From Candidatus Saccharimonadota bacterium (GTDB lineage: Bacteria > Bacteroidota > Bacteroidia > Cytophagales > Amoebophilaceae), in the NCBI RefSeq assembly GCF_964030745.1, contig NZ_OZ034918.1:900001-932000 (forward strand): a DNA stretch of 32,000 nucleotides, in the 5' to 3' direction. A program made the translations under genes and the position numbers. Below are positions 22 through 29,945 of the stretch, in pieces (position 1 is the first letter of the stretch; every line of letters starts with the position of its first letter). Under the pieces are notes generated by a model that saw only the letters and a program-made list of their open reading frames with translations, did no database searches and was not told where the DNA came from.

Positions 22-487
22 GTATCTATTCACGCCTTTGGCTGGCCGCCTTATCTCCTTCGATAAAAAGTCTGGCCCGATAGTAAATAGCTGAATCGAT
101 ATATTTTTCAGCTGTTAGTGTTTTACTAGAGCGCCATTTTTTATCGAAGGAGACGCGGGAGGGGTACTTGGTCAGCTATTTGCTTTTTCGTATCTGTTCA
201 ACACTATGGCCATAGTGATAAAATGCCTCTGTAAAAAGTTTCGAAATAGAAGCCACCCCTTGCAGATGATTGGGAAAAACAGATTCCTTTGAAGCCCGCG
301 CAGCGGGCGACTTCTGTTTTTCCATCTGTAAGGGGTGGCTTCCGGAACTTTTTGCCGAGGGCTTGATTTTTTGTCCACTTTTTTATCAAGAAAAAAGTGG
401 AATACAATTCATTATTAACCAGTGACGTGAATAGATACCAGCTATTTGCTTTTTCAGAAAAACGTAATCACAGTGATGAATAGATAC
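22..487 (+). repeat. Composite palindromic MITE-like element (family A; termini GTATCTATTCAC ... GTGATGAATAGATAC) with a nested second element, lacking the central core of the copy at 28219-28496
   Basis: 22-189 and 439-487 are near-identical to 28219-28310 and 28381-28496. The terminal inverted repeats are visible directly. The interior is an imperfect long palindrome (CTCCTTCGATAAAAA ... TTTTTATCGAAGGAG). Confidence 0.85.
190..438 (+). repeat. Nested palindromic MITE-like element (family A-prime; termini GTATCTGTTCAAC ... GTGAATAGATAC) inserted into family A
   Basis: Flanked by a 17-bp direct duplication CAGCTATTTGCTTTTTC (173-189 and 439-455). The uninterrupted site is seen at 28449-28465. 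The centre has the GC hairpin GAAGCCCGCGCAGCGGGCG. A deletion derivative lies at 4755-4886. Confidence 0.85.
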
Positions 488-545: not shown

Positions 546-3050
546 TTAGGTATAGTAAATCCGTTTCACCCTTTGGCTGATTTGGGTCAATAGCTCATAA
601 GGAATCGTACCCAGCTGTTCGGCTAGTGCATCTATTGAGTGTACTGCATTAAAGATAATCACCTCATCGCCACGTTGTGCGGTTATATTGGTCACATCAA
701 CCATAGCCATGTCCATGCATACATTTCCTATAATGGGACATGCATGACCTTGAATGATAACCCTTCCTTTACCACAACCAAATGATCTGCTTAAACCATC
801 TGCATACCCTATTGGTATGGTCGCAATCGTTATATCTTGCTGGGCTATCCCTTTTCGATCATATCCTATACTTTCCCCTTTTTGAATCGATTTGATCTGT
901 GAGATGGTCGTCTTCAGTGTGCTAGCTGGTAGGAGATACGGCTGAATGGTTTGATCAACACCTACGCCATGTAACCCAATCCCTAGCCGCACCATATCAA
1001 ATTGAAACTGCTGAAAACGTAGTATGCCATTGGTGTTTAAAAGATGTTTTAAAGGTTTGATGGCGAGCTGCTGTTCTATATATTGCGTCATTTTTATAAA
1101 CCTATCGGCTTGCAAAAGCGTATATGCATCATGCATGTCTTCTTGTGAAGCAGCTAAATGGCTAAAAATGCTTACGATATGTAGGGCAGGTATTTGTTTT
1201 AATTGCGTTATGAGCTGGTCTAGTGCTGTTTCTTCTATTCCCAAACGGTGCATACCTGTTTCTAGTTTAAGGTGAATGGGTATAGATTGGATCGATTTTT
1301 CTGATATAAAACACGCCAGCTCATCTAATAAGGGCAGGCTGTATACTTCTGGTTCTAAATGATGGCTTAGCATGGCATCAAAGTGGTCGTCGGTTGGGTT
1401 CATTACCATGATGGGTAAGGTAATCCCTTGTTGGCGTAAATGGATGCCTTCATCCATATAGGCAACGCCGAGATATTCTACACCATGGCGCTGTAGTGCA
1501 GAAGCGAGCTCAAAACTATTGCTACCACTTCCATAGGTAGAGGCCTTGACCATAGCCATGATTTTGGTACCTACTTGTAGTTTGCTTCTAAAGTAGGAGA
1601 GGTTGTGCCTAATGGCATGCATATCTATCTCTAAAATGGTTCCATGGCTATTTTTTTCCATCGTTTGCACCACCCGTTCTAGTCGAAAGCTGCGTGCTCC
1701 TTTTACTAAGATGGTTTCATCTTTAAAGGAGGGCTTTGCTGCTATAAATGCCTCTACACTATTAAAAAATATAGTTTCTGGTATTTCAAATAGTGTGCTG
1801 TGGTGACTGATAACTGGTCCAATACCTATCAATCGATGGATCGCATGTTTGGCCAATAGTGCTGCTAGTTCCTGATAAAGTTGATGGTCAGGTGTAGCAG
1901 ATTGGAGCATATCAGATAGGATAACCGTTCGTTTGGTGGGCTGTTGTTGTTGCATAAAATCTAATGCAAGTCTTAAGCTGGCGATGTCATTGGTGTAGGT
2001 ATCATCTATAACCTGGCAGCGATTCATGCCAGCTTTAAGGGTCATGCGCATCGGTATGGCTTTAAGCTGTAATAGTGAACGTTGCAGTAGTGCTGGATCA
2101 AGCCCATTGTCTAGTAAGTAGACCAGGCAATGGGTGATGTTTTCTATGGAAGCACTATCTCGAAAAGGGACTATAAAGGTGTTGGCGCGCTTATGGTTTT
2201 GGGTTGATCTAGTAATTTGTAACTTAGTTTGGCCAGTTAGCTGCTTGCATCTAACCAAATAATCTGCTGTTGGGTTGTTAAAAGACCAGTTTATCAGTTC
2301 GTTCTTATATCGTTTTCTAAGGACTTGGTCTACTAGGGGATGGTCTTTGCAGTAGTAAATGGTGCTACAGCCTGCAAACAATTTTATTTTCTCCTCGATC
2401 TTTTGCGTTATGGTTTGAAAGCCTTGGCTATGGGCAGGGCCGATATTAGTAAATAGCCCATGGGTGGGTTGTATGAGTCGAGCCAATTTTTCCATTTCAC
2501 CGGGTTGAGAAATGCCTGCTTCAAAAATGCCATATTCATGGTTGGGTTGTAATAAACTGATGGAAAGAGGTACGCCTACTTGAGCATTATAACTGTGTGG
2601 GTTGCTAACGGTTTTGTACTTTCTGGATAATAATTCATGCATCCATTCCTTGACAATCGTTTTGCCATTGCTGCCTGTAATGCTCAATAATGGTAATTGA
2701 TATTTTGATCGGTAAAAAATAGTGAATTGGTGTAAGGCTTCTAATGGGTCAGTTACCGCTAGAATATTTACATCGTTGTATTTTTCTATTATGGAATGAT
2801 TATATGCGTGGTTGACTACAAACTGGCGTATGCCTTTCTGATAAGCCTCTATTATATAATCATGACCATTATGGTTAATCCCTATAATCGCAAAAAAAAG
2901 CGGAAATGGCGTAAAGGTTTTGTTTCTGCTGTCTATACTTAATTCCGTTATGGGCAAGTTGGCTGTTTCAGCTACTGGGTAGCCTGCTGTAACCGCTACT
3001 AAGTCATTAAAGTGGCCCAGAATATGTGGGAAGGATATGGTTGATTCCAT
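546..3050 (-). CDS. murF-alr: Bifunctional UDP-N-acetylmuramoyl-tripeptide--D-alanyl-D-alanine ligase (MurF) / alanine racemase (Alr) fusion
   Basis: 834-aa ORF with an ATG start. The N-terminal half has the Mur ligase ATP-binding motif ITGSNGKT. The C-terminal half has the alanine racemase PLP-lysine motif MVKASTYGSG plus IPIGYADG and GNVCMDM. Confidence 0.93.
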   Translation of the reverse strand: MESTISFPHILGHFNDLVAVTAGYPVAETANLPITELSIDSRNKTFTPFPLFFAIIGINHNGHDYIIEAYQKGIRQFVVNHAYNHSIIEKYNDVNILAVTDPLEALHQFTIFYRSKYQLPLLSITGSNGKTIVKEWMHELLSRKYKTVSNPHSYNAQVGVPLSISLLQPNHEYGIFEAGISQPGEMEKLARLIQPTHGLFTNIGPAHSQGFQTITQKIEEKIKLFAGCSTIYYCKDHPLVDQVLRKRYKNELINWSFNNPTADYLVRCKQLTGQTKLQITRSTQNHKRANTFIVPFRDSASIENITHCLVYLLDNGLDPALLQRSLLQLKAIPMRMTLKAGMNRCQVIDDTYTNDIASLRLALDFMQQQQPTKRTVILSDMLQSATPDHQLYQELAALLAKHAIHRLIGIGPVISHHSTLFEIPETIFFNSVEAFIAAKPSFKDETILVKGARSFRLERVVQTMEKNSHGTILEIDMHAIRHNLSYFRSKLQVGTKIMAMVKASTYGSGSNSFELASALQRHGVEYLGVAYMDEGIHLRQQGITLPIMVMNPTDDHFDAMLSHHLEPEVYSLPLLDELACFISEKSIQSIPIHLKLETGMHRLGIEETALDQLITQLKQIPALHIVSIFSHLAASQEDMHDAYTLLQADRFIKMTQYIEQQLAIKPLKHLLNTNGILRFQQFQFDMVRLGIGLHGVGVDQTIQPYLLPASTLKTTISQIKSIQKGESIGYDRKGIAQQDITIATIPIGYADGLSRSFGCGKGRVIIQGHACPIIGNVCMDMAMVDVTNITAQRGDEVIIFNAVHSIDALAEQLGTIPYELLTQISQRVKRIYYT

Positions 3051-3315: not shown

Positions 3316-3657
3316 GTATCTATTCACGCAGAACAGCATTTTTTACATGGAGTATTGGTATACGCAGCACTTATGGCCACCGATAAAAAACTTCCGCTTT
3401 ACTGAAGCGCCGCATTCCTTTATCGGCGGCCACAATAGCTTTTCTGATCATTATCAGCCTCGCGTCTCCTTCGATAAAAAAATGGCGCTCTAGTAAAACA
3501 CTAACACTTGAGTGATATCTTTTTCAGCGGATTAGAAAATCGTCTGTTTGAAGCCCGCTTGCGGGCTGAGTTCACGATTTTCCCGCTGAAAAAGATATCG
3601 ATTCAGCTATTTACTATCGGGCCAGACTTTTTATCGAAGGAGATAAGGGGGCCAGCC
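3316..3657. repeat. Composite of nested palindromic elements: GTATCTATTCAC terminus, short family-B derivative (3371-3439) and reverse-oriented family-A body with GC-hairpin core (3460-3657)
   Basis: 3460-3657 matches the reverse complement of 28232-28435. 3371-3439 matches the two ends of 28501-28691 with the interior missing. The core TTTTCAGCGG...GAAGCCCGCTTGCGGGCT...CCGCTGAAAA lies at 3521-3593. Confidence 0.8.
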
Positions 3658-3673
3658 ATAGCTAGGCTAAAGG

Positions 3674-4747
3674 CTATTCCTCTGTTCCTGCTTGTAATTT
3701 TTCTGCATTATCTGCCACACGCAGCGCTTTGATCATGTCCAATATAGCTCCATCTAATATAGCTGCTAAATTATGTTCGGTATAGCCAATCCGATGATCG
3801 GTTGCACGGGCTTGAGGAAAATTGTAGGTTCTAATCTTATCCCCTCTGTCCCCCCGTTTGACCATAGATCTCCGTTCCATACCAATCGCTTCTTGTTGTT
3901 TTTTTACTTCCATATCATAGAGGCGGGAACGCAATACCTTTAAGGCTTTTTCATAATTTTTAATTTGCGATTTCCCATCTTGGCAGGATACAACTAGCCC
4001 AGTGGGTATGTGGGTAAGCCGTACAGCTGAATAGGTTGTGTTTACCGACTGTCCTCCTGGACCAGAAGAGCAAAAAGTATCTTTCCGTACATCATTTAAA
4101 TCCAAGTTGATTTCCACATCTCCTGCTTCTGGTAACACCACTACACTGGCTGCTGAAGTATGTATACGGCCTTGTGTTTCAGTAGTAGGGACCCGTTGTA
4201 CACGATGTACCCCAGATTCATATTTCATCAGACCATATACATCTTCACCCGCTACCGTACAGACGATTTCTTTCCAGCCCCCAGCAGTACCTTCTATCGT
4301 ATATACAACAGAAAAATCCCATTTCATTTTTTCTGCAAAACGCTTGTACATACGAAAAAGATCTCCGGTAAAAATGGCTGCTTCGTCTCCACCAATACCA
4401 GCCCGAATCTCTAAAACAATGTTTCTGCTGTCATTGGGATCGCTTGGTGTAAGTGCATCGCGCAATTGAGCTTCTAAGTTGGATTTTTTATCTAAAGCAG
4501 ATGCTAGCTCTTGTTTGGCAATTTCACGGAAGCCCTCTTCTTTTTCAATATTTAATACCTCTTTCGCTTCTGTTATATTTGCTAATACAAGCTCATAGTG
4601 GTTGTATAAGTCAACAATTTTAGATAGCTTGCTGTATTCCTTATTGAGTGCGGCATAGGCCTTGATGTCAAGTACCGCATCTGGCTGATGGATAGCTGCC
4701 TCTACCTCGTGAAACCGCTCCTTGATGGATTTTAATTTGTCAATCAT
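3674..4747 (-). CDS. prfA: Peptide chain release factor 1
   Basis: 357 aa. GGQ motif SGPGGQSVNTT. RF1-type P-x-T tripeptide context RVPTTETQGRIHTS, with no SPF motif. Confidence 0.96.
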   Translation of the reverse strand: MIDKLKSIKERFHEVEAAIHQPDAVLDIKAYAALNKEYSKLSKIVDLYNHYELVLANITEAKEVLNIEKEEGFREIAKQELASALDKKSNLEAQLRDALTPSDPNDSRNIVLEIRAGIGGDEAAIFTGDLFRMYKRFAEKMKWDFSVVYTIEGTAGGWKEIVCTVAGEDVYGLMKYESGVHRVQRVPTTETQGRIHTSAASVVVLPEAGDVEINLDLNDVRKDTFCSSGPGGQSVNTTYSAVRLTHIPTGLVVSCQDGKSQIKNYEKALKVLRSRLYDMEVKKQQEAIGMERRSMVKRGDRGDKIRTYNFPQARATDHRIGYTEHNLAAILDGAILDMIKALRVADNAEKLQAGTEE

Positions 4748-4754
4748 ATAATCC

Positions 4755-4886
4755 CTATCTGTTCACATCACTGGTAAATAATGGATTGTATCCCACTCTT
4801 TTTTCTTGATAAGAAAGTGGACAAAAAATCAAGCCCTCGGCAAAAAGTTGGGGCAGTTTGCTATAGCCATAGCGTTGAACAGATAC
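4755..4886 (-). repeat. Deletion derivative of family A-prime MITE (reverse orientation) between rplT and prfA; partial second fragment at 4887-4920
   Basis: Both ends match the reverse complement of the ends of 190-438 (TATCTGTTCAC ... GTTGAACAGATAC). The central hairpin region is replaced by GGGGCAGTTTGC. Confidence 0.8.
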
Positions 4887-16030: not shown

Positions 16031-17219
16031 TGTAGTAGTTGATATTTAATCTGACAGGCAGTAAAAATTAGACTGTATAGATGTCAGTTAAGTTTAGTTT
16101 GTCAGGTATGCTCTTAAGATACGCGATTTGATTATTTTTTTCAAAGGCTAGTTTTTTACTATCTTCCCAAGTTTGTATAGGCGTTTTACCGTAACAGTAC
16201 TTTCCAGAATGTGGTCGCTCATGATTATAATAATGTAACCAGCTATCTAAATCTTGTTTCAAGACATCCAGGTCTGTATAGATCTTCTTACGCATAGCTG
16301 TATCAAAGAATTCCTGTTTCATCGTTTTATTAAACCGCTCACAGAACCCGTTGGTTTGCGGTGAATAGGCTTTAGTAACAGTATGTTCTATGCCTTCTAT
16401 GCTTAAAAACAACTCAAAGGCATGATGCTCTATTTTACCTTTATACTCAGTACCACGATCTGTTAGAATGCGCAAGAGGGGTATGCTTTGTTCTTGATAC
16501 CAAGGCAATACTCTATCATTTAACATATCAGCAGCTGTCAAGGCTGTCTTATCAGTATAGAGTTTTGCATGAGCTACCCGAGAATAACTATCTATAAATA
16601 CTTGCGTATAAACCTTACCTATCCCTTTAAAGTTACCAACGTAATAAGTATCTTGACAGCCTAAATAACCAGGGTGTTCTGTATCTATTTCTCCACATGC
16701 TTCTTGTTCATGCTTACGTTTTTCTAATGCGGATAGCTGAGATTCCGTTAAAACAAGGCCATCTTGAGCCATTTTAGCTTCTAAGGCTTTAAGACGTTTT
16801 TTTATATTATTTAAGTCATTACGTAACCAGATAGACCTGACACCGCCAGGAGAGACCAGGATACCTTGTTGCTTTAGTTCATTAGATACTCTAAGCTGGC
16901 CATAGGCTGGATAATCTATCGCCATATCTACTACTGCTTTTTCTATACTAGGATCTACTCTATTAGCCATAATCGGCTTCCTACGGCTTATCTCTTGTAA
17001 AGCCTCTTGACCGCCTGTTTCATACAAGGCTTTGAAGCGATAATAGCTATCTCTACTATAACCCATAGTTTTACACGCCGATGAAATGTTCCCCAACGTT
17101 TTTGCTAGCTCCAATAAGCCTACTTTCGGCTTGATGATTTTTTGATGTAAATTCATAATAGTAGTCGGTATTTATATCAACACAAATTAATAAATGTCAG
17201 ATTAAATATCAACTACTAC
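16031..17219 (-). mobile_element. IS481-family insertion sequence, 1189 bp, perfect 26-bp terminal inverted repeats, no flanking target-site duplication
   Basis: TGTAGTAGTTGATATTTAATCTGACA (16031-16056) is the exact reverse complement of 17194-17219. TGT...ACA tips. A single DDE (rve) transposase ORF lies inside. Confidence 0.92.
16068..17156 (-). CDS. IS481-family DDE transposase (integrase core domain)
   Basis: 362 aa. N-terminal HTH region. DDE contexts [19 protein letters not shown] and [14 protein letters not shown]. Confidence 0.93.
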
Positions 17220-18397
17220 ACCTTACCCTTACCCTTACTCATCATACTCTTAGGATTCTTTTTATTGTTAGCTCGCTTGCTTGGGTACATATCATATAGT
17301 TCATTTTCTTCTTGTTCTCTTGCTTTCTTATTTTTGATTTCTTTCGCTGCTGCTGTTACATTGGTTATTGCTTGTGTTATAGCTTCTTCTGTTTTTTTTA
17401 TATCTCTAGATTGGTTTAATGCCTTGGTCTTTAATGCTTCTGCTATTGAATTTAATGTTGGTTGTAATTTTATCTGATTCTCTGGTTTTTTTATTTCTTT
17501 TCCTAGCTCTTTTATTTCTTTTCCTAGCTCTAGCGCCTCTTTTTTTTGAGTTTGTAAAGATTTTTCATGTTTTTCTATGCACTCGACCCTTCTTTGCACC
17601 TTATTAGACTTCGTTGAGTTTTGTAGTTGTTCTATGATACTACTTATTTCTTTTTCTTTGAACTTGATTTCTAATTTTTTTATCGTACCTATTGTTTGTT
17701 CTACTAATTTTTTACATTCCTGTAGTTGACTATCAGTTTCTACACTAGGTGTAACAAATACTACATCAGGTCCTTTTTGCGTTGGTTTTTGTTTCTGTTT
17801 CTGTTTCTGTTTCTGTTTGTCCTTGTTCTTGTTCCTGTTCTTGTCCTTGTTCCTGTTCTTGTTCTTGTTCTTGTTCCTGTCCTTGTTCTTGTTCCTGTCC
17901 TTGTTCTTGTTCTCTGTGTTTCCCTTTTTTGCTATATCCTGCGTTGTTTCTATCCTTTGCGCTGTCTTGTTCGCATGCTCTATCTGTTTTACTTCTTCTT
18001 CACCTCCTTCCTTTTCTAGTGTTGTTGTATGCTGTTGGTTTGGCTTGTTCTTATCTACATCCTTTATCTCTTGCTCTTGGTTGTATTGAGTTTTTGGGTC
18101 AGTTGCGCCTTCATCGTTATTATTCTTGTTTGCCTGCTCTTTCCTTTGTTGAGTAGGTATACCTTTGTTGCGCTGCGTTGCTTGATCAGTTATGGCTGTT
18201 TCACTAATGATGGTATTGTTTGATCCAATACATGCCAACCTACCTCTTGATGAAATTGTTATATGATCCTGAATATATTCCTGACCGTTTAGAATGGGTG
18301 GGCGGGGCAAGTTGTATTTCTTAATGTTTTTGCATGCAGCTGCTATTAAAAACGTTAAGCACAAACATAGTTTTACTATAGATTTAATGGTATCCAT
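17216..18397 (-). CDS. Orphan lipoprotein with K/N/Q low-complexity tract and coiled-coil-like C-terminal part; the stop codon is supplied by the IS481 inverted repeat, so it is probably 3'-truncated
   Basis: The preferred start is ATG at 18395-18397, giving MDTIKSIVKLCLCLTFLIAAAC (lipobox). This aligns with the MHTTKFILKIYFCFTFLIAGAC of the 155-aa paralog. The ORF-track start at 18418 is TTG. TAG at 17216-18 lies inside the IS terminal repeat. Confidence 0.7.
   Translation of the reverse strand: MDTIKSIVKLCLCLTFLIAAACKNIKKYNLPRPPILNGQEYIQDHITISSRGRLACIGSNNTIISETAITDQATQRNKGIPTQQRKEQANKNNNDEGATDPKTQYNQEQEIKDVDKNKPNQQHTTTLEKEGGEEEVKQIEHANKTAQRIETTQDIAKKGNTENKNKDRNKNKDRNKNKNKNRNKDKNRNKNKDKQKQKQKQKQKPTQKGPDVVFVTPSVETDSQLQECKKLVEQTIGTIKKLEIKFKEKEISSIIEQLQNSTKSNKVQRRVECIEKHEKSLQTQKKEALELGKEIKELGKEIKKPENQIKLQPTLNSIAEALKTKALNQSRDIKKTEEAITQAITNVTAAAKEIKNKKAREQEENELYDMYPSKRANNKKNPKSMMSKGKGKV
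17791..17910. repeat. Hexanucleotide tandem array (20 units: GTTTCT x4, then YYTTGT variants) encoding the (QK)n/(NK/NR/DK)n tract
   Basis: The period-6 repeat is directly visible. An adjacent 21-bp tandem duplication at 17491-17532 encodes the repeated KEIKELG. Confidence 0.9.
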
Positions 18398-18595
18398 TAC
18401 ACTAATATGGTCAGCCAAAATGGTGCGCTGGCCAATCCTTTTGATTGCTTAGATTTGGCATACGGCTTGTATAGAGGGCAGCTTTAGCTGCTGCTATTAA
18501 AGTTAAGCAAAAACATTACTGTAATGTATACTTAGTAGCATGATGCAATTAGTGCGTGTTGGCTATCGCTTATTTTTATGTTTTTTGCTAAACTT

Positions 18596-19465: not shown

Positions 19466-19609
19466 TAGACCTTCTGCAAAACCTATTTCTAATGGCAATT
19501 TTGGTGTCGAAGCTTGTCTATGCTCCTCAAATACATCTAGTATTCTGCGGTGCTCGACTGCGCTTCTCCTAAAAATTGCTGATCACAAATAGCTTTTGCA
19601 GAAGGTCTA
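19466..19609. repeat. 144-bp palindromic element (family P), intergenic reference copy
   Basis: Perfect 16-bp termini TAGACCTTCTGCAAAA / TTTTGCAGAAGGTCTA. The roughly 105-bp interior is about 90% identical to the reverse complement of 27561-27704. Confidence 0.9.
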
Positions 19610-21868: not shown

Positions 21869-24800
21869 ATGATCTGCTTTAATATCTCTCTATGGATAGT
21901 CTCTGCTTTTTTAGCGTTAACCTTGATGGTAGGTATTTACTTTAGTAGAAAAAAAACCACCTTTCGAGAATATGCGGTGGGAAGTAAACAGTTTTCTACC
22001 GCTACTTTAGTAGCTACAGTATTGGCTACTGCTTTTGGGGGGGGGGGATTGGTGCGTAACGTAGAGTGTGTGCATGAACTTGGCTTATGGTGGATAATAC
22101 TTAGATTTTTAGATTGTTTTGGTGTATGGGTTGTTAGTAAGTTAGTATTACGTATGGGGCCATTTATGCAACATTTCTCTATGGCAGGGACAATAGGCCA
22201 CATCTATGGAAGATGCCCAAGGGTTATTGCTGCACTGATTGGTATTTGTGGTAGTATCGTTATAATTACTATGCAAATCACTGTAATGTCCCAGGCTATT
22301 GGCATGTGTATAAGCTTAGGTAATCCTTATGTAATGCCTATATTGGCTACTTTACTTCTTGTTTTCTATTCTACTTTTGGAGGTATTCGTGCCGTTACCT
22401 TTACAGATGTATTACAATTTATCACCTTTTCGATTATTATCCCTTTACTCTGTTGGTTTATCTTTAGAAAAGCAGGCAAGCCAATTGCGGAGATTTTTCC
22501 TATGCTACAGAGTCAAACTAAGTTTCAATTTGGCACTCTATTTCATTCTAGCATGCAGTTGGTAAGTATGATCTTACTTGCGTTGAGTTGTTTGGTATCC
22601 TATATAAATCCTCAGATGGTACAGCGGATTTACATGGCTTCTGGTTGTGTCCAAGCCCAAAATGTTTTTTCGTATACAACTATTTTTATGATTATTATAA
22701 AAATTTTTATAATACTAACTGGAATATTTGTTTTTGCAGGAGCGCCAGATTTACCCAAAGCAGCAGTTTGGGAATATATAATGGCCAATATTCCCCCCTT
22801 TTTTAAAGGATTTGTTGCTATTAGCTTACTGGCTATGGCTATGTCTACAGCTGATTCTTGCTTAAATGCTTGTGCGGTTATGGTTAGTCATGATATAGTG
22901 CAAAGCTCACAAAAAGAAATAGCTGATGCACGTCAACTTAAAATAGCTAGATGGACCACGTTAGTAGTGGGCTTATTGGCTATGCTTTTAGCTTTTAAGT
23001 GTAGAGACCTATTAAAACTCATGTATTGGTCTCTTGCTTGTAAGATACCTATAACAGTTGCTCCTTTTACATTAGCTGTTTTTGGCTTTCGGGGTACTTG
23101 TCGTACAGCGTTGATCGGTATGGCAACTGGTGGACTAGCTATTTTAGCTTGGAACACATGGGTTAAGCCTTCAACAGGGATGGATGGCTCTTTCCTTGCT
23201 ATGGTAGCAAATGGCCTAGCTATGATGTCAGCCCACTATTTATTCAAACAGCCCAAAGGTGCAGGTTGGGTTGGTCCAGATTACCAATTTAAACAACTGC
23301 AGCAAGCAGATGCACGTAAGCGCGTGGAACGAAAAGAAGCTATTAAGAATCGTTGGTCCAATAAAAAAGTTAGCTTATCCAAGCTGATACCCAGTGATCG
23401 TACCATACGCTTAACAGGGCTTTATATGGTTGCTACTGCCATTTTAGATTATTGGTTTATTAGGCCCGATCACATCTATTGGGCGATTTGTCAAGTCCTT
23501 GTGGGAGCGCTTTTTACCTCTTCTAAAACCTTTTTTAGCAAAACCATTCCAGCTTGGTGCATGGGTTTGTGTTGGCTAATAGGACTAGCGGTTTACCTCC
23601 CTGTAAATCTACTTGAGCACTGGTGGAATCTGGTAGACCCGGTCTTTACCACATCCTTGTCGCTGGCTCATTGTGGAGTAATCTTATCGCTCTTTCCCCT
23701 CTATCTGGGTATAGGGGTTGTAGCTGGCACATTACTACTAGCGCTTTACCCCATCTCTGTGGGCTTGACGCTGCCCATGTTGTGTACCTTGTTGCCACTA
23801 TTTGTGGTGAGCCTATTAATGGTTGCGATTATTGTTTGGTTTAAAGTCAACCAAAATATTTACACAAATAAAATTCTTTACCTTGAAAATCAGGAAAAAA
23901 TCAGAGAATCCCAGCAGCTAAAAGCCTATCTTTATGATGCAGCTGCGGTACCTACCGCTGGTAAGGCCAAAGGGTATGGCGCTATTTTAACGCAAGTAAT
24001 AGGTAAGATTGAGGAATCTATTTCTTTTTTAGATAGCAATATTCCGCTTTATAAACAGGATTTTCAGAGTATTATCAATAAGCTTTATGATTGGGTAGCT
24101 TATTTCAATAGAAGGGCCAAAGCCAAAAAGCATGCGTTGTTGAAGCCTACGCAGATTACATTAGATAAGTTAATCCGTAAGGTAGAGTTGGCCTTGCTGC
24201 AAGAGGTGGCTGATCCGCCTAGACTACTGGTAGAAACCATAACTAGTGCCAATGGGGGGGCATCCCCTTATATGGTATGTGATATCCATCAAGTAGTCTA
24301 CTTATTGGTTAAGGCTGTTTTACGTGTCGGTAAGCTACAGGAGGCGGTTAGGCCCGTTGTGCGGATACAACTCCATTCCACTGCTTTGCAGTTTAAGCTA
24401 GCCGATCCTGTTGATGGCAGCCAGCCTGTATGCATTCTTTTTCAAGCTACTGCGTTGGTAATCAGCCAGGCTACTGTTGCTCCTGAAACACTACCTACAG
24501 TGAAACAGACCTATCGTGATGCTATAGATGCAATCGGCCCTCAAGGTAAACCAGAAACACCACCCTCTATAGACTTGCAACAGGAAACCTTATCCAGTAT
24601 TGTTGGTGCCCATTATGGCTATTGGGAAACGTTGGGTGGGGAAAAACAACCAACCATGTTGTTGGTATTGCCTAATGATGTGACAGATATCCTAGGTAGG
24701 ATGACTACTACACTCCCTCTAGATGCCTTAACCTTAGAAGCACCTGCCACCCCTAAGGAGCAAGCCGATTCGATGATGGCACTCATGAAGTTCCATGATT

Positions 24801-25405
24801 ATGTTTGCAAGTCCTCTTATCAGATGGATCCTGTGGATGTAGGCACTATTTCTGGATTGCTTTTATTGCTGCGGCAACATTTTGGTTTTAAACGACATGT
24901 TTCTGGTCAATTGCTTTATGTACGGGCGGTAGGCATTGCTGAATTGGTAGTAGAGTGGGCTTTTCATTCTCCTAAAGTGATCTATGCTGCTTTGTTGTAT
25001 GAACTGGTGCGTCGCACCTGTTTACCGCTTTCTTATGTCAAGGAACATTATAACTTAGGCGTCTATGCTTTTGTCTTGAATGTGGTAGGGATCGATAAAC
25101 GGCAATCGCTAGACCATCCTTCTTTGCTATATGTGCAGAATCGACTGAAAGAAGCGATCAAGGAAGAACATATACAGCTTTCTGTTCTATTTATTAAACT
25201 GGCAGAACGGCTCTATGACCTACGCCATGCAGCAGGTTATATCCATCCAACAGAGGTGCAACATATGGCACAAGAAACATTGGCTATAGATGTGAAACTG
25301 GCCAATACGTACTTAGGCCCAGAGATAGCTACAGTATTAGAAGTAGCAGCTAGAAAGGCACTAAAGATGGGCCAAGAGATTAGGCAAGCTAAAGGGGCAA
25401 AATAG
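21869..25405 (+). CDS. Multidomain membrane protein: sodium:solute symporter (SSF) domain, then extra TM bundle, then histidine-kinase-like module lacking catalytic motifs, then degenerate RelA/SpoT-type HD (ppGpp-hydrolase-like) domain
   Basis: 1178 aa. Residues 1-470 are SSF-like (FREYAVGSKQFS, TAFGGGGL, about 12-13 TM). Residues 510-650 form about 5 more TM helices. Residues 660-930 resemble the DHp/HATPase layout (MVCDIHQVVYLLVKAVLRVGK ... LSSIVGAHYGYWETLGGEKQPTMLLVLP). Residues 990-1170 align to RSH hydrolase blocks (HFGFKRHVSGQ, AALLYELVRRT, LFIKLAERLYDLRH, AQETLAIDVKLA). Confidence 0.8.
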   Translation: MICFNISLWIVSAFLALTLMVGIYFSRKKTTFREYAVGSKQFSTATLVATVLATAFGGGGLVRNVECVHELGLWWIILRFLDCFGVWVVSKLVLRMGPFMQHFSMAGTIGHIYGRCPRVIAALIGICGSIVIITMQITVMSQAIGMCISLGNPYVMPILATLLLVFYSTFGGIRAVTFTDVLQFITFSIIIPLLCWFIFRKAGKPIAEIFPMLQSQTKFQFGTLFHSSMQLVSMILLALSCLVSYINPQMVQRIYMASGCVQAQNVFSYTTIFMIIIKIFIILTGIFVFAGAPDLPKAAVWEYIMANIPPFFKGFVAISLLAMAMSTADSCLNACAVMVSHDIVQSSQKEIADARQLKIARWTTLVVGLLAMLLAFKCRDLLKLMYWSLACKIPITVAPFTLAVFGFRGTCRTALIGMATGGLAILAWNTWVKPSTGMDGSFLAMVANGLAMMSAHYLFKQPKGAGWVGPDYQFKQLQQADARKRVERKEAIKNRWSNKKVSLSKLIPSDRTIRLTGLYMVATAILDYWFIRPDHIYWAICQVLVGALFTSSKTFFSKTIPAWCMGLCWLIGLAVYLPVNLLEHWWNLVDPVFTTSLSLAHCGVILSLFPLYLGIGVVAGTLLLALYPISVGLTLPMLCTLLPLFVVSLLMVAIIVWFKVNQNIYTNKILYLENQEKIRESQQLKAYLYDAAAVPTAGKAKGYGAILTQVIGKIEESISFLDSNIPLYKQDFQSIINKLYDWVAYFNRRAKAKKHALLKPTQITLDKLIRKVELALLQEVADPPRLLVETITSANGGASPYMVCDIHQVVYLLVKAVLRVGKLQEAVRPVVRIQLHSTALQFKLADPVDGSQPVCILFQATALVISQATVAPETLPTVKQTYRDAIDAIGPQGKPETPPSIDLQQETLSSIVGAHYGYWETLGGEKQPTMLLVLPNDVTDILGRMTTTLPLDALTLEAPATPKEQADSMMALMKFHDYVCKSSYQMDPVDVGTISGLLLLLRQHFGFKRHVSGQLLYVRAVGIAELVVEWAFHSPKVIYAALLYELVRRTCLPLSYVKEHYNLGVYAFVLNVVGIDKRQSLDHPSLLYVQNRLKEAIKEEHIQLSVLFIKLAERLYDLRHAAGYIHPTEVQHMAQETLAIDVKLANTYLGPEIATVLEVAARKALKMGQEIRQAKGAK

Positions 25406-25541: not shown

Positions 25542-28157
25542 ATGACTAAGCCCTTCTTGCCACAACGGTATAATTTTTTAGAACGGGAAAGCCATTGGCG
25601 CCGCTTTTGGGAAACAGAGGCGTTATATAGCTGGGACCCCACTGCTTCTCGTTCAGATACTTTTGTAGTAGACACACCGCCTCCTACTATTTCTGGGCAG
25701 CTGCACATAGGCCATGCTTGCAGCTATGCACAAGCTGATTTTATTGTACGCTTTCAACGCATGTTGGGTAAAAATATTTTTTATCCGATGGGATTTGATG
25801 ACAATGGTTTGCCTACAGAACGGTTGGTAGAAAAACAAAAAGGTGTGCGTGCAGCCAGTATGGATAGGGCAGCTTTTATAGGGTTATGTCAAGAGGTAGT
25901 GGCTACACAAGAGGAACATTTTAGGAATCTTTTTAAGGCTATGGCATTGTCTGTTGACTGGAGCCTAGAATATCAGACGATTAGCCCATTGTCTCGTAAG
26001 CTTTCGCAGATGTCTTTTTTGTCACTTTTAAAGAAAGGTGAGCTATACCGTAGTGCACAGCCTATGTTGTGGGATCCAGTAGATGGTACTGCTTTGGCAC
26101 AAGCGGATATTGAAGATAAGGAGCGTACTGCTTATATGCATGAGATCCTATTTACACATGAAGCGACGCAGGCTCCCTTAGCCATTGCTACGACCAGGCC
26201 GGAGTTGTTGCCTGCTTGTGTGGCTTTGTTCTACCATCCAGATGACCCGCGTTACCAACAGCTTGCCCATACTTATGCCATTGCCCCTATATTTAACATC
26301 AGGGTTCCTATTTTAGCAGATACCTTGGTGCAACCCAATAAGGGAACTGGTTTGGTGATGTGTTGTACTTTTGGAGACCAAACTGATATTATATGGTGGA
26401 AAAAGCATCAACTACCTACTTGTATCATTCTGAATAAGCAGGGTAGGGTTACGCATGCTGGTCCATTGGAAGGGTTAAAGGTCACAGAAGCACGTGAAAA
26501 AATCATTCAAATCTTAAAAGAGCAGTCGTTTTTGGTCAAGCAAACGCTCGTGCATCAATCTGTAAAATGTGCAGAACGTTCTGGCGCGCCCTTAGAGATT
26601 TTGACGACTCCTCAATGGTTCGTACGGACCATAGACCATAAAGCAGCACTGTTGGCTAAAATTGATCAACTCAAATGGCACCCTGCTTCGATGCAGCATA
26701 GGCTCAAGGAATGGGTAGGTGGTGTGGCTTGGGATTGGTGTATGAGCCGCCAGCGTTATTTTGGCGTACCTTTTCCTGTTTGGTATTCTAAGAGGGCTGG
26801 AGAGGAAGGTAAAGTTTTGTTGCCCACTATAGCCCAACTGCCTGTGAATCCTCTTGAGGATCTGCCGATAGGCTATACAAGGGAAGAGGTAGAGCCGGAC
26901 TATGATGTGATGGATACTTGGGCAACGAGTAGTATTTCGCCACAGCTTTCTTCTCATGCGATTGATAAGGACTATAGTGTGGATTATAATAGACATCTGC
27001 AGTTATTTCCTATGGATTTGCGGCCACAAGCCCATGAAATTATACGGACTTGGGCCTTTTATACCTTGCTGAAAGCCCATTTGCATGAGGATAGTCTGCC
27101 TTGGAAAAATGTTATGATCCATGGGTGGTGTCTGGCGTCAGATAAGCAGAAAATGTCTAAGTCTAAAGGCAATGTGTTGCTACCTGAAAAGCTTTTAGAA
27201 ACATATGGGGCGGATGTTATCCGTTATTGGGCAGCCAATGCGCGTTTGGGTGCAGATACGCACTATTGTGATAATGTGATGAAAAATGGAAAACGGTTGG
27301 TTACGAAGTTATGGAATGCCGGCAAGTTTATTTTGAGCCATTTTGATCAAGTAGAAGGGTTCAATCAGCTGTTTGAGTGGCAAAAGATCACCCATACGCT
27401 AGATAAATGGCTGTTACAATCACTAGCAGAACTGACTAAAAAGGTTCATCTGCAGTTCCTATCCTATGGGTATGCCGAGGCGTTGGAGTCGGTAGAAAGA
27501 TTTTTTTGGTCTGTGTTTTGTGATGATTATATTGAGATTAGTAAAGCCAGGGTTTATGATAGCCCTCTTTCGAAAGCGGTTTGTGATGCGCAATTTTTAG
27601 GAGAAGTGCAGTCGAGCACCGCAGAATACTCGCCTGTATTTGAGGAGCATAGACTAGCTTCGACACCAAAATTGCCATTAGAAATCGAGTTTCGAAAGAG
27701 GGCTGGGTTGCAGCAGGATAGGCAGGGGCAGTCTAGCGCTATGCTAACGCTTTACCATGCCTTTTATGGTCTGTTACAGCTTTTTGCGCCTATTTTACCC
27801 TATATCACGGAAGAACTTGCTCAGGGGATGTATCCCCATAAAGGCTCTATTCACCAAAGGGGTAATTGGCCCAAATGGCCATTGGATACTATGCTCAGTC
27901 AAGCGGAATTAGACCAGGTTGCCCATCTTAGGGAAATCATTGGGTTGGTACGTAAGGCGAAAGCTGATGGTAAGCGTTCTATAAAGGCGCCGATTGAGTT
28001 GTTGGCCATTAGGGGTACGGTTTTAGATGAGGATTTACGTGAAGACCTTCAAGCTGTGACGGCTGCTACAGAGGTTGTGTTTGGTGACCTGGCGTTGGAT
28101 GGTATGGAGTTGCAGGTGGTGGGTAAACAGTGTGCGATAGGGATTGTGTGGGGGTAA
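25542..28157 (+). CDS. valS: Valine--tRNA ligase, archaeal/actinobacterial-type, carrying a 48-codon in-frame palindromic-element insertion
   Basis: 871 aa. HIGH (SGQLHIGH) and KMSKS (QKMSKSKGN) motifs. Also [12 protein letters not shown], editing-domain block [23 protein letters not shown], and [17 protein letters not shown]. Confidence 0.93.
27561..27704. repeat. 144-bp palindromic element (family P) inserted in frame within valS
   Basis: Termini AGCCCTCTTTCGAAA / TTTCGAAAGAGGGCT are perfect inverted repeats. The interior is about 90% identical to the intergenic copy at 19466-19609 in reverse orientation. Length is 144 bp, or 48 codons. Confidence 0.9.
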
Positions 28158-28218
28158 GGGTTTGGTTTTCAATCAAATAAAGCTATTAGGGGGGGCTTAT
28201 AGCTATTAAAGGACTTAT

Positions 28219-28496
28219 GTATCTATTCACGTCTCTGACTGGCCGCCTTATCTCCTTCGATAAAAAGTCTGGCCCGATAGTAAATAGCTGAATCGATATA
28301 TTTTTCAGCGGGAAAATCGTGAACTCAGCCCGCAAGCGGGCTTCAAACAGACGATTTTCTAATCCACTGAAAAATATATCGCTCAGGTGTTAGTGTTTTA
28401 CTAGAGCGCCATTTTTTATCGAAGGAGACGCGGGACGGGTACTTGGTCAGCTATTTGCTTTTTCAGAAAAACGTAATCACAGTGATGAATGGATAC
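28219..28496 (+). repeat. Full-length family A palindromic MITE-like element (278 bp) flanked by the 8-bp direct repeat GGACTTAT
   Basis: Termini GTATCTATTCAC / GTGATGAATGGATAC. GC-hairpin core at 28302-28374. GGACTTAT at 28211-28218 and 28497-28504. Confidence 0.9.
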
Positions 28497-28500
28497 GGAC

Positions 28501-28691
28501 TTATAGCCGCCGATAAAAAATGGGACACTTCAGTAAACTGTAGTTTTTAAAATATCTGTTTTTCAGCGGATCAGAAAATCATCTTGTTCGAAGCCCGCGT
28601 AGCGGGCTGAGTTTATGATTTTACCGCTGGGAAACAGATATTTTCATTTTTTTTACTGCGTGTCTCATTTTTTATTGGCGGCTGTAATAGC
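28501..28691 (+). repeat. Family B palindromic element (termini TTATAGCCGCCGATAAAAAA / TTTTTTATTGGCGGCTGTAATAGC) with the same GC-hairpin core
   Basis: The inverted termini are visible. The core at 28560-28634 is about 85% identical to 3521-3593. A short derivative without the core lies at 3371-3439. Confidence 0.8.
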
Positions 28692-28789
28692 ATTGACATC
28701 TTAACTTGACTAGATATCTAATTATTAATTAGAGTAAGTTAATCCATCAAGTTCGCGCCATTGAGGACACACTTTCTGAGTGTAACTCT

Positions 28790-29793: not shown

Positions 29794-29945
29794 GTATTAT
29801 TCACTGCTGTGGCAGAAAATGCATTTTTTCTAGCTTTTTATGAAAATTTTAACCAAAAATTGGGCAGTTATGTACAATAACTGCCCTAAAATCATGTCTG
29901 AAATAGGTCGAAAAGTAAATTTTAGCCACAATGGTGAATAGATAC
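29794..29945. repeat. 152-bp MITE-like element sharing the GTATCTATTCAC-type terminus but with an unrelated interior
   Basis: GTATTATTCACTGCTGTGGC (left end) versus GCCACAATGGTGAATAGATAC (right end), with 16 of 20 positions matching as an inverted repeat. Central perfect hairpin GGGCAGTTAT-GTAC-ATAACTGCCC. Confidence 0.7.

What the first reader, a model, noticed from the sequence alone, without database searches (positions are those of the whole stretch)
22..487. Filled-site versus empty-site pair shows one palindromic element inserted into another with a 17-bp duplication
Family A occurs twice in the same orientation, at 22-487 and 28219-28496, with near-identical arms. In the first copy a 249-bp element (190-438, termini GTATCTGTTCAAC / GTGAATAGATAC) interrupts the right arm. 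It is bracketed by an exact 17-bp direct repeat CAGCTATTTGCTTTTTC (173-189 and 439-455). The second copy has the uninterrupted sequence GGTCAGCTATTTGCTTTTTCAGAAAAACG, so the window contains both the occupied and the unoccupied site. A 17-bp duplication is unusually long for classical DDE transposition. Together with the near identity of the copies, this argues for recent mobility by an unidentified mechanism. No cognate transposase is encoded in the window, and the IS481 termini are unrelated.
Basis: seen in the sequence. Interest (0 to 1): 0.7.

Follow-up and report, generated by a model that had tools for sequence, protein, structure and literature searches.

The report
Nested IS66-derived MITEs in Cardinium
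Two small non-coding transposon relics (MITEs) sit one inside the other in a Cardinium insect-symbiont genome; their ends match an IS66-family insertion sequence that normally duplicates 8 bp of target, so the 17-bp duplication here is a one-off oddity and not evidence of a new mobility mechanism.

Summary
Element A occurs at 22-487 and 28219-28496 (97.5% identical). A 249-bp element B (190-438) interrupts the first copy, flanked by an exact 17-bp repeat, and the second copy carries that 17-mer once.

The "unidentified mechanism" reading does not hold. The window comes from a Cardinium endosymbiont. The termini of A and B (GTATCTRTTCA...) match the inverted repeats of a single-ORF IS66-family (ISBst12-group) insertion sequence:
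- a 1498-bp copy in a Cardinium-like metagenome has the TIR GTATCTGTTCAAGTCTGTGG, and B matches it at 17/20 and 16/20 positions;
- Cardinium DF plasmid p_B carries pseudogenised copies;
- Wolbachia ISWen3 has the same kind of ends.

These ISs, and 12 of the 13 small elements with these termini that still show a flanking repeat, have 8-bp target duplications. That includes A copy 2 itself (GGACTTAT). The 17-bp repeat is therefore a single outlier. It is either an off-register strand transfer, or a recombinant between two 8-bp-duplication insertions 9 bp apart (8+9=17).

No IS66-type transposase is encoded in the window. This is a new IS66-derived MITE family, distinct from the published Cardinium MITECca01/02. 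Interest is modest.

The parts
22..189 (+). Element A copy 1, left part, up to and including the left copy of the 17-bp repeat. The left terminus is GTATCTATTCACGCCTTTGG (22-41).
   Evidence: (D5, D6). There are 4 mismatches in 168 nt against copy 2. The 78-bp central hairpin of copy 2 is absent after position 112.
173..189 (+). Left copy of the 17-bp direct repeat CAGCTATTTGCTTTTTC.
   Evidence: It abuts the B terminus exactly.
190..438 (+). Element B, a 249-bp MITE. Termini are GTATCTGTTCAACACTATGG (190-209) and, read on the reverse complement, GTATCTATTCACGTCACTGG (438-419). It has a long internal palindrome (arms 249-268 / 323-342) and a central GC hairpin at 294-308.
   Evidence: I20, I25; DNA fold -63.8 kcal/mol, z = -11.6. 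Searches show homologues in Cardinium DF p_A and cBcalN2. One search gives TIR identity of 17/20 and 16/20 to the IS66-family IS. One search shows the right end aligning with the IS right end beyond the TIR.
439..455 (+). Right copy of the 17-bp direct repeat.
456..487 (+). Element A copy 1, right end. The terminus read on the reverse complement is GTATCTATTCATCACTGTGA.
   Evidence: D8, D11: 98% to copy 2. No target duplication flanks the outer A1 ends.
28211..28218 (+). Left copy of the 8-bp target duplication GGACTTAT of A copy 2.
28219..28496 (+). Element A copy 2, 278 bp and uninterrupted. It contains the single 17-mer (the empty site) at 28448-28464 and a 78-bp central hairpin module at 28310-28387.
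   Evidence: (fold -61.4 kcal/mol, z = -8.8).
28497..28504 (+). Right copy of the 8-bp target duplication GGACTTAT of A copy 2.
3316..3661 (-). Third A-family copy, inverted, chimeric and truncated. It has one GTATCTATTCAC terminus at 3316. The A-homologous arm plus central hairpin span 3452-3661, and the other terminus is missing next to the prfA stop codon.
   Evidence: (I1: 185 nt, 96% to copy 2; I2, I8).
4755..4886 (-). B', a 132-bp deletion derivative of B that lacks the central palindrome. It lies between rplT and prfA and has no recognisable target duplication.
   Evidence: (I4, I11).
29794..29945 (+). Element E, a 152-bp MITE with termini GTATTATTCACTGCTGTGGCAG / GCCACAATGGTGAATAGATAC. 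Its flanking 8-mers match at 5/8.

Best explanation
Positions 22-487 hold two non-autonomous transposable elements (MITEs), one nested inside the other. Both carry the terminal inverted repeats of a single-ORF IS66-family (ISBst12-group) insertion sequence that circulates in Cardinium, Wolbachia and other bacteria.

Shown:
- A and B are non-coding, strongly palindromic and multi-copy.
- They are bounded by GTATCTRTTCA... termini that match the TIRs of ISs encoding a DDE_Tnp_IS66 transposase.
- B interrupts A exactly at its termini.
- Those ISs and nearly all sister MITEs carry 8-bp target duplications.

Inferred:
- B was mobilised in trans by such a transposase, encoded elsewhere in the genome or since lost, and pasted into the right arm of an A copy.
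- The 17-bp duplication arose in that single event, because the two strand transfers were staggered by 17 nt instead of the canonical 8 nt. The extra 9 nt is roughly one helical turn. The target is A/T-tract-rich and palindromic (TTTTTCAGAAAAA).
- Gap repair then duplicated the 17 nt.

I put the identity of the elements and their transposase family at about 0.9. I put the single-event origin of the 17 bp at about 0.45.
For: Nested structure and empty site.

Organism: Cardinium. RF1 is 91% identical to C. hertigii and cBtQ1.

B homologues:
- Cardinium DF plasmid p_A has a B homologue with an exact 8-bp duplication, TCAGTTTG.
- The cBcalN2 contig L021 carries two copies.

TSD table:
- exact 8 bp in 9 elements;
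- 7/8 in 3 elements;
- 17 bp only here.

Link to the IS66 family:
- ISDge4 (IS66 family, ISBst12 group) has TIRs GTGACTACTCAGCA and GTAACTGCTCAGCA and an 8-bp DR (PMC12898284).
- Cardinium DF p_B carries frameshifted ORFs with DDE_Tnp_IS66 (1.3e-19) and zf-IS66. They start 90 nt inside a GTATGTGTTCAGCGCAGTGG terminus. A second fragment ends in GTATCTATTCACCGCAGTGG.
- Its homologues are annotated as IS66-family transposases of several Cardinium strains, Wolbachia ISWen3 and Rickettsia. ISWen3 is assigned to IS66 in PMC3205602.
- An intact 1498-bp IS (L156 5910-7407, also L157-L161) has one 460-aa ORF, the TIR GTATCTGTTCAAGTCTGTGG and the 8-bp TSD AAACGAGA.
- B's termini are 17/20 and 16/20 identical to that TIR. 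B's right end also aligns with the IS right end for some 20 nt beyond the TIR, by my reading of the alignment.
- A Wolbachia ISWen3-like copy (L163) has the TIR GTATCCGTTCAGCGGAGTGG and the 8-bp TSD AGTAAAAA.

Non-coding status: the longest ORFs are <=74 aa and have no database relatives.
Against: - No IS66-type transposase lies in the 32-kb window, and I could not search the rest of this genome. An active partner in this strain is therefore unproven.
- 17 bp is outside the 8-bp duplications seen here for this IS clade, so a single-event origin needs an unusual strand-transfer geometry for which there is no direct evidence.
- The empty site is a paralogous copy, not the orthologous pre-insertion allele.
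- Only 13 elements with recognisable flanking repeats were available. Some of the metagenomic ones were picked up by a pattern that already required the termini.
Confidence: 0.55

Rival explanations
1. Two ordinary insertions followed by recombination. B inserted independently, in the same orientation, into two different A copies at sites 9 bp apart. One insertion made the 8-bp duplication CAGCTATT and the other made GCTTTTTC. Homologous recombination or gene conversion within B then joined the left junction of one to the right junction of the other. That yields exactly GGTCAGCTATTTGCTTTTTC[B]CAGCTATTTGCTTTTTCAGAAA, a 17-bp (8+9) repeat.
For: The arithmetic reproduces the observed junctions exactly (sequence). 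The clade's duplication is otherwise a strict 8 bp. The genome shows abundant recombination among these repeats: chimeric A3, A1 without a target duplication, module gain and loss, and loss of synteny next to prfA.
Against: It needs two independent insertions within 9 bp in paralogous copies, and the known 8-bp targets show no strong site preference. No such single-site intermediates appear among the three A copies in the window.
Confidence: 0.2
2. A canonical 8-bp insertion followed by a local 9-bp duplication at one junction, caused by replication slippage or repair synthesis at the hairpin-prone junction. This would extend the repeat from 8 to 17 bp.
For: The region is extremely hairpin-prone. 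The A copies differ by a 78-bp hairpin indel bounded by TCAG microhomology, which shows that slippage-type events occur here.
Against: The extra 9 bp would have to copy precisely the adjacent target sequence and land exactly between the B terminus and the 8-bp duplication, without any scar. No simple slippage template gives this.
Confidence: 0.1
3. Site-specific integration. B is a small integrative element and the 17-mer is an att core shared by the element and its target, so the repeat marks attL/attR and is not a target duplication.
For: 17 bp is a typical size for an att core. One unrelated metagenomic hit (L147) does show a 19-bp repeat that includes the terminus.
Against: The 17-mer is absent from every other B copy and from every other locus held. 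The B copy on Cardinium DF p_A has a different, 8-bp duplication. B has TIRs matching a DDE transposon. No recombinase lies nearby.
Confidence: 0.03
4. One reading: the elements move by a novel, non-DDE or otherwise unidentified mechanism that characteristically makes long (about 17-bp) duplications.
For: One exact 17-bp duplication, and no transposase in the window.
Against: The termini and the subterminal right end match IS66-family ISs. Twelve of the 13 sister elements with recognisable repeats, and both intact ISs examined, have 8-bp duplications.
Confidence: 0.04

Closest known systems
IS66 family, ISBst12 group (single-ORF members such as ISDge4, Wolbachia ISWen3, and probably ISCca16 of Cardinium)
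   Same: The terminal inverted repeats are of the same type. ISDge4 has GTAACTGCTCAGCA, the ISWen3-like copy has GTATCCGTTCAGCGGAGTGG, and the Cardinium-like IS has GTATCTGTTCAAGTCTGTGG, against GTATCTGTTCAACACTATGG in B. An 8-bp target duplication is seen in A copy 2 and in sister MITEs. B's right subterminal sequence aligns with the IS right end.
   Different: A and B encode no transposase, are 132-278 bp long against about 1.5 kb, and have palindromic interiors unrelated to the IS. The B-in-A insertion has a 17-bp duplication, not 8 bp. The ends read GTAT, whereas (from memory, not tested here) the IS66 family is characterised by GTAA ends.
MITECca01 / MITECca02 of Cardinium cOegibbosus (Halter et al. 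2022, PMC9769881)
   Same: They are MITEs of about 240 bp in a repeat-rich Cardinium genome. They are intergenic and often inserted into other mobile elements.
   Different: They derive from ISCca4 (IS982 family), with the IRL ACGTGAATTCGGGATT. That terminus has no match in the window. The elements here belong to a different IS family.
Nested or composite palindromic repeats of intracellular bacteria (Rickettsia palindromic elements, Wolbachia palindromic elements, Neisseria Correia elements) - comparison from general knowledge, not tested
   Same: They are short, hairpin-forming, intergenic repeats that insert into one another and into gene ends.
   Different: Here clear TIRs, target duplications and a matching autonomous IS family are identifiable.
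IS families said to make long or variable duplications (IS1634/IS1549, IS1202 group, IS1182) - recalled from memory as a lead
   Same: Duplications well above 10 bp.
   Different: No similarity of termini, and no such transposase is associated with these elements. The clade here is otherwise a strict 8 bp.

Membership tests
MITE (miniature inverted-repeat transposable element) | Small size (under about 300-500 bp) and no transposase gene | tested here: met
   A is 278 bp, B 249 bp, B' 132 bp and E 152 bp. The longest ORFs are <=74 aa and found no relatives among 5.8 billion proteins.
MITE (miniature inverted-repeat transposable element) | Terminal inverted repeats | tested here: met
   GTATCTRTTCA... 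at both ends of A, B, B' and E.
MITE (miniature inverted-repeat transposable element) | Flanking target-site duplication, with an empty site available | tested here: met
   A2 has 8 bp (GGACTTAT). B-in-A1 has 17 bp, with a paralogous empty site at 28448-28464. A1 (outer ends), B' and E have none or a decayed one.
MITE (miniature inverted-repeat transposable element) | Multiple copies, and termini shared with an autonomous IS | tested here: met
   There are at least 6 copies or fragments in 32 kb. TIR identity to a 1498-bp IS66-family IS is 17/20 and 16/20.
IS66 family / ISBst12 group (as the mobilising family) | The partner IS encodes a DDE_Tnp_IS66 transposase bounded by the same termini | tested here: met
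   Pfam PF03050 and PF13005 hit ORFs next to a GTATGTGTTCAGCGCAGTGG terminus in Cardinium DF p_B. Intact copies are L156-L161. The Wolbachia ISWen3-like copy is L163.
IS66 family / ISBst12 group (as the mobilising family) | Single ORF, with no tnpA/tnpB accessory genes (ISBst12 group) | tested here: met
   About 90 nt separate the IRL from the ATG, and 24 nt separate the stop codon from the end of the IRR, in L161 and L156. A recalled TnpB sequence found nothing in the loci held at that point, which did not yet include the intact ISs L156-L163.
IS66 family / ISBst12 group (as the mobilising family) | 8-bp target duplication | tested here: inconclusive
   Met for A2, the two intact ISs examined and 11 other MITEs. 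Not met for the B-in-A1 insertion itself (17 bp).
IS66 family / ISBst12 group (as the mobilising family) | A functional partner transposase is present in this genome | not testable with these tools
   There is none in the window.
MITECca01/02 (IS982/ISCca4-derived Cardinium MITEs) | Termini ACGTGAATTCGGGATT / ACCTGAGTTCGGGATT | tested here: not met
   0 matches in the window at <=2 mismatches.
Integrase-mediated insertion with a 17-bp att core | The same core sequence flanks, or is carried by, other copies of the element | tested here: not met
   The 17-mer is found only at 173, 439 and 28448, and in no other locus held at the time.

The most novel reading that the evidence does not exclude
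The IS66/ISBst12-type transposase has a second, rarely used strand-transfer register about one helical turn wider (17 nt against 8 nt). This register would be favoured when the target is a bent, A-tract-rich or cruciform-prone palindrome such as another MITE. Target-duplication length in this family would then depend on target structure and would not be fixed.
Probability: 0.2. Interest if true: 0.45.

Novelty: new member of a known kind. Interest (0 to 1): 0.3.

Why it matters
The finding adds a second, IS66-derived MITE family to the repeat-rich Cardinium genomes. Only IS982-derived MITEs had been described there. The same terminus type occurs on MITEs in Wolbachia-like, Flavobacteriia and Desulfobacterota sequences. 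ISBst12-group elements therefore appear to be a widespread but little-noticed source of MITEs.

In practice these nested palindromes break short-read assemblies. The Logan contig for this strain ends inside B'. They also sit at gene ends and synteny breakpoints, so annotating them improves endosymbiont genome curation.

The 17-bp duplication is a useful test case for how strictly IS66-type transposases measure their target stagger. A single example does not establish a new mechanism.

Tried and rejected
1. The genome-contig scan with GTATCTATTCACNNYNNTG had only 14 fixed bases. It did yield the Cardinium cBcalN2 contig and, on re-inspection, MITEs in Desulfonatronovibrio, Syntrophales and Lutibacter.
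2. A metagenome scan with a 23-nt TIR consensus found 0 hits. A viral scan gave 2 chance hits in one phage gene.
3. A protein search with concatenated MITE ORFs, meant to find more copies, found 0 hits.
4. BLAST of bare TIRs against plasmids found only the known p_A copy.
5. IS982/MITECca01 as parent was rejected because the termini differ.
6. The Cardinium IS6 element (pcBtQ1) as parent was rejected. Its TIR is GGCTCTGTCGCATCT, which is only a loose resemblance, and (from general knowledge) replicative cointegrate transposition is a poor fit for MITE spread.
7. The IS481 element in the window as mobiliser was rejected because its termini (TGTAGTAG...) are unrelated.
8. Orthologous empty sites in C. 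hertigii, cBtQ1 and the Tipula Cardinium could not be used. Their intergenic regions are too diverged to align, although they contain no elements with these termini.
9. A terminator function for the central GC hairpins is not supported statistically. Consensus terminator hits are not above the shuffle expectation.
10. Exact-protein look-ups for this strain returned only short Logan contigs that end inside the repeats.
11. The look-up of the Philonthus Cardinium IS66 transposase was not on record.

Full report
**1. The observation**

Reading the window directly confirms every coordinate in the finding.
- Element A occurs at 22-487 and at 28219-28496, in the same orientation.
- In the first copy, a 249-bp segment (190-438) begins GTATCTGTTCAAC and ends GTGAATAGATAC.
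- That segment is flanked by the exact 17-mer CAGCTATTTGCTTTTTC (173-189 and 439-455).
- The second copy has the 17-mer once (28448-28464), in the continuous context GGTCAGCTATTTGCTTTTTCAGAAAAACG.
- The 17-mer occurs nowhere else in the window, and in none of the 155 loci held at the time.
- With B removed, the two A copies differ at 5 of 200 aligned positions (97.5%).
- The shared 12-nt terminus GTATCTATTCAC is over-represented: 13 matches at <=2 mismatches against 2.4 expected.

**2. What else is in the window**

- A copy 2 is itself flanked by an exact 8-bp direct repeat, GGACTTAT (28211-28218 / 28497-28504).
- A copy 1 lacks a 78-bp central hairpin that copy 2 (28310-28387) and a third copy both carry.
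- The third A copy is inverted, chimeric and truncated. It lies at 3316-3661, between tRNA-Lys and the stop codon of prfA.
- A 132-bp deletion derivative of B (B') lies at 4755-4886, between rplT and prfA.
- A 152-bp element E with the same termini lies at 29794-29945.
- All copies are intergenic. A and B fold into very stable hairpins as single strands (z = -8.8 and -11.6).
- They encode nothing recognisable. ORFs are <=74 aa, and a protein search with their concatenated translations found no relatives.

**3. Organism and relatives**

Housekeeping genes place the window in Cardinium (Amoebophilaceae, Bacteroidota). RF1 is 91% identical to C. hertigii and cBtQ1. The same strain was found only as short Logan contigs from SRR15069915, and one of those ends inside B'.

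B has homologues in other Cardinium:
- A 262-bp copy on plasmid p_A of the Dermatophagoides farinae Cardinium (CP101109.1) is flanked by an exact 8-bp duplication, TCAGTTTG.
- Two adjacent copies sit on a 394-bp contig of Cardinium cBcalN2.

About 21 kb around prfA in each of C. hertigii, cBtQ1 and the Tipula Cardinium contains no such termini. The family is therefore expanded in particular lineages.

**4. The canonical duplication is 8 bp**

A structural scan of metagenomes (left terminus, 215-245 nt, right terminus), together with re-inspection of the earlier genome scan, recovered small elements with these termini in several places:
- low-GC contigs (WNGO01);
- a Lutibacter MAG;
- Desulfonatronovibrio MAGs;
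- a Syntrophales MAG.

The summary table shows an exact abutting 8-bp repeat in 9 elements:
- window A2;
- Cardinium DF p_A;
- L139, L153, L144 and L150;
- Desulfonatronovibrio L053;
- Syntrophales L059;
- Lutibacter L110.

Three more match at 7/8 (L141, L151, L091). Only B-in-A1 has 17 bp. No repeat is recognisable for A1 (outer ends), B', E or L056. None of these small elements has a transposase beside it.

**5. The cognate transposase family**

The published Cardinium MITEs (MITECca01/02, derived from IS982-family ISCca4) have different termini, ACGTGAATTCGGGATT, and are absent from the window.

The lead came from ISDge4 of Deinococcus geothermalis. It belongs to the IS66 family, ISBst12 group, has TIRs GTGACTACTCAGCA and GTAACTGCTCAGCA, and makes an 8-bp direct repeat (PMC12898284).

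A local tblastn with a recalled IS66 TnpC sequence then hit Cardinium DF plasmid p_B.
- ORFs at L133 39003-40428 carry DDE_Tnp_IS66 and zf-IS66. They are frameshifted, and they start 90 nt inside the terminus GTATGTGTTCAGCGCAGTGG.
- A second fragment ends in GTATCTATTCACCGCAGTGG.

The closest homologues are annotated as IS66-family transposases of several Cardinium strains (72-79% identity, including a partial one from cBcalN2), Wolbachia ISWen3 (57%) and Rickettsia. ISWen3 is listed under IS66 by Cerveau et al. (PMC3205602).

An intact element was recovered from metagenome and Logan assemblies (L156-L161).
- It is 1498 bp long and has a single 460-aa ORF.
- Its TIR is GTATCTGTTCAAGTCTGTGG, with 19-20 of 20 positions matching between the two ends.
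- In L156 it has the exact 8-bp duplication AAACGAGA.
- L156 also carries an IS481 copy that is 84.5% identical to the one in the window, so its host is a Cardinium-like relative and not the same strain.

B's termini are 17/20 and 16/20 identical to this TIR, and A's are 14-16/20. By my reading of the alignment, B's right end aligns with the IS right end for some 20 nt beyond the TIR.

A Wolbachia ISWen3-like copy (L163) has the TIR GTATCCGTTCAGCGGAGTGGCAGAATAAGGTAGAC and the 8-bp duplication AGTAAAAA. Its terminus is almost identical to that of the WNGO01 MITEs.

The window itself encodes no IS66-type transposase.

**6. Mechanism**

The best-supported picture is ordinary trans-mobilisation. 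A and B are MITEs carrying the ends of an ISBst12-group IS66-family element. A DDE transposase encoded elsewhere, or since lost, binds those ends and pastes the element into a staggered cut, and gap repair creates the duplication.
- Shown: the termini match, the partner ISs encode DDE_Tnp_IS66, and 8-bp duplications are the rule.
- Inferred: that such a transposase actually moved B into A in this lineage.

The 17-bp duplication is a genuine outlier. I see three ways to obtain it.
- (a) A single insertion whose two strand transfers were 17 nt apart instead of 8. The extra 9 nt is close to one helical turn. The right boundary of the duplication lies within 1 nt of the centre of the small palindrome TTTTTCAGAAAAA, in A-tract-rich, hairpin-prone DNA.
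- (b) Two canonical insertions of B into two A copies, 9 bp apart (duplications CAGCTATT and GCTTTTTC), followed by recombination within B. This reproduces the observed junctions exactly, because 8+9=17.
- (c) A canonical insertion followed by a 9-bp junctional duplication.

I rank them (a) about 0.45, (b) about 0.2 and (c) about 0.1. They cannot be separated without the rest of the genome.

A site-specific (att core) origin is contradicted, because the 17-mer is absent from all other B copies.

**7. Comparison with what is known**
- The elements work like, and qualify as, MITEs. All the defining features were tested and met.
- Their mobilising family is IS66/ISBst12. The TIR match, the transposase domain and the single-ORF organisation were tested and met.
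- The 8-bp duplication criterion is met for the family but not for this particular insertion.
- They are not MITECca01/02.
- Nested MITEs are commonplace, and MITEs in Cardinium are published.
- What is new: (i) an IS66/ISBst12-derived MITE family in Cardinium, and (ii) the same terminus type on MITEs in other phyla. I found no report of either in the literature I searched.
- Also new is a single 17-bp duplication in a clade that otherwise makes 8 bp.

**8. Verdict**

The finding is real but largely ordinary: a new member of a known kind. "Recent mobility by an unidentified mechanism" is not supported. The A copies are 97.5% identical and not identical, several copies are decayed or chimeric, and the mechanism is identifiable. 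Interest is about 0.3. The residual novelty lies in whether IS66-type transposases can use a wider target stagger in structured DNA.

Noticed in passing
window 99-120 versus 28296-28395: A copy 1 lacks a 78-bp central GC-hairpin module (28310-28387) that A copies 2 and 3 carry. The breakpoints share TCAG microhomology, which suggests hairpin deletion by slippage. Similar GAAGCCCGCnnnGCGGGC hairpins sit at the centre of B (294-308) and of the palindrome at 28549-28644.
   Followed up: partly
window 3316-3680: The third A copy is chimeric. It has a different, D-like palindromic module at about 3370-3440 and is truncated 13 nt from the prfA stop codon. The RF1 C-terminal tail is 5-6 residues shorter than in most other Cardinium compared, so the insertion may have reshaped the gene end.
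   Followed up: partly
window 28505-28693: Another long palindromic element, without GTATC termini, lies immediately downstream of A copy 2. A copy 2 appears to have inserted at its left edge, so this is a second case of repeat-in-repeat nesting.
   Followed up: no
window 16031-17220: An apparently intact IS481-family element: a 362-aa ORF with rve and HTH domains, a perfect 26-bp TIR (TGTAGTAGTTGATATTTAATCTGACA), and no obvious target duplication. A copy that is 84.5% identical lies next to the intact IS66-like element in L156.
   Followed up: partly
window 546-3050 (-): A single 834-aa ORF fuses a Mur-ligase (MurF-like) module to a complete alanine racemase (Pfam).
   Followed up: no
window 21869-25405 (+): A 1178-aa ORF fuses a sodium:solute symporter domain to an HD_4 domain. 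Similar symporter and HD-domain genes are annotated on the Cardinium DF plasmids, and on p_A one lies next to the B-like MITE. This hints at plasmid-chromosome exchange.
   Followed up: no
window 19466-19609 and 27560-27704: A separate inverted-repeat family, with arms 71 nt at 86% and 58 nt at 93% plus local palindromes (I3, I5, I7, I10). It is unrelated to the GTATC-terminated elements.
   Followed up: no
window 17216-18418 (-), repeats 17777-17942: A 400-aa ORF with no Pfam match contains about ten 12-nt tandem repeats (CTTGTTCTTGTT-like), so it encodes a low-complexity repeat protein.
   Followed up: no
L139 3549-3802, L141 2642-2897, L153 1856-2108; L163 524-2005: MITEs of about 255 bp on low-GC metagenome contigs (WNGO01) share their first ~35 nt (GTATCTGTTCAGCAGAGTGGCAAAATAAGGTAGAC) with a Wolbachia ISWen3-like IS. 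This indicates an ISWen3-derived MITE family, which I did not find described.
   Followed up: partly
L053 315-398, L091 4856-5090, L059, L110 764-964: Short elements (72-235 bp) with the same terminus type and 8-bp duplications occur in Desulfonatronovibrio, Syntrophales and Lutibacter MAGs. ISBst12-type MITEs therefore extend well beyond arthropod endosymbionts.
   Followed up: partly
L159/L160 1501-1589: In the Cardinium-like metagenome, the intact IS66-like element lies 8 nt from a degenerate B-like MITE arm (…CTTTTTTCTTGATAAAAAAGTAAGCAAAAAATCAAGC), so the IS and its MITEs co-occur in one genome.
   Followed up: no
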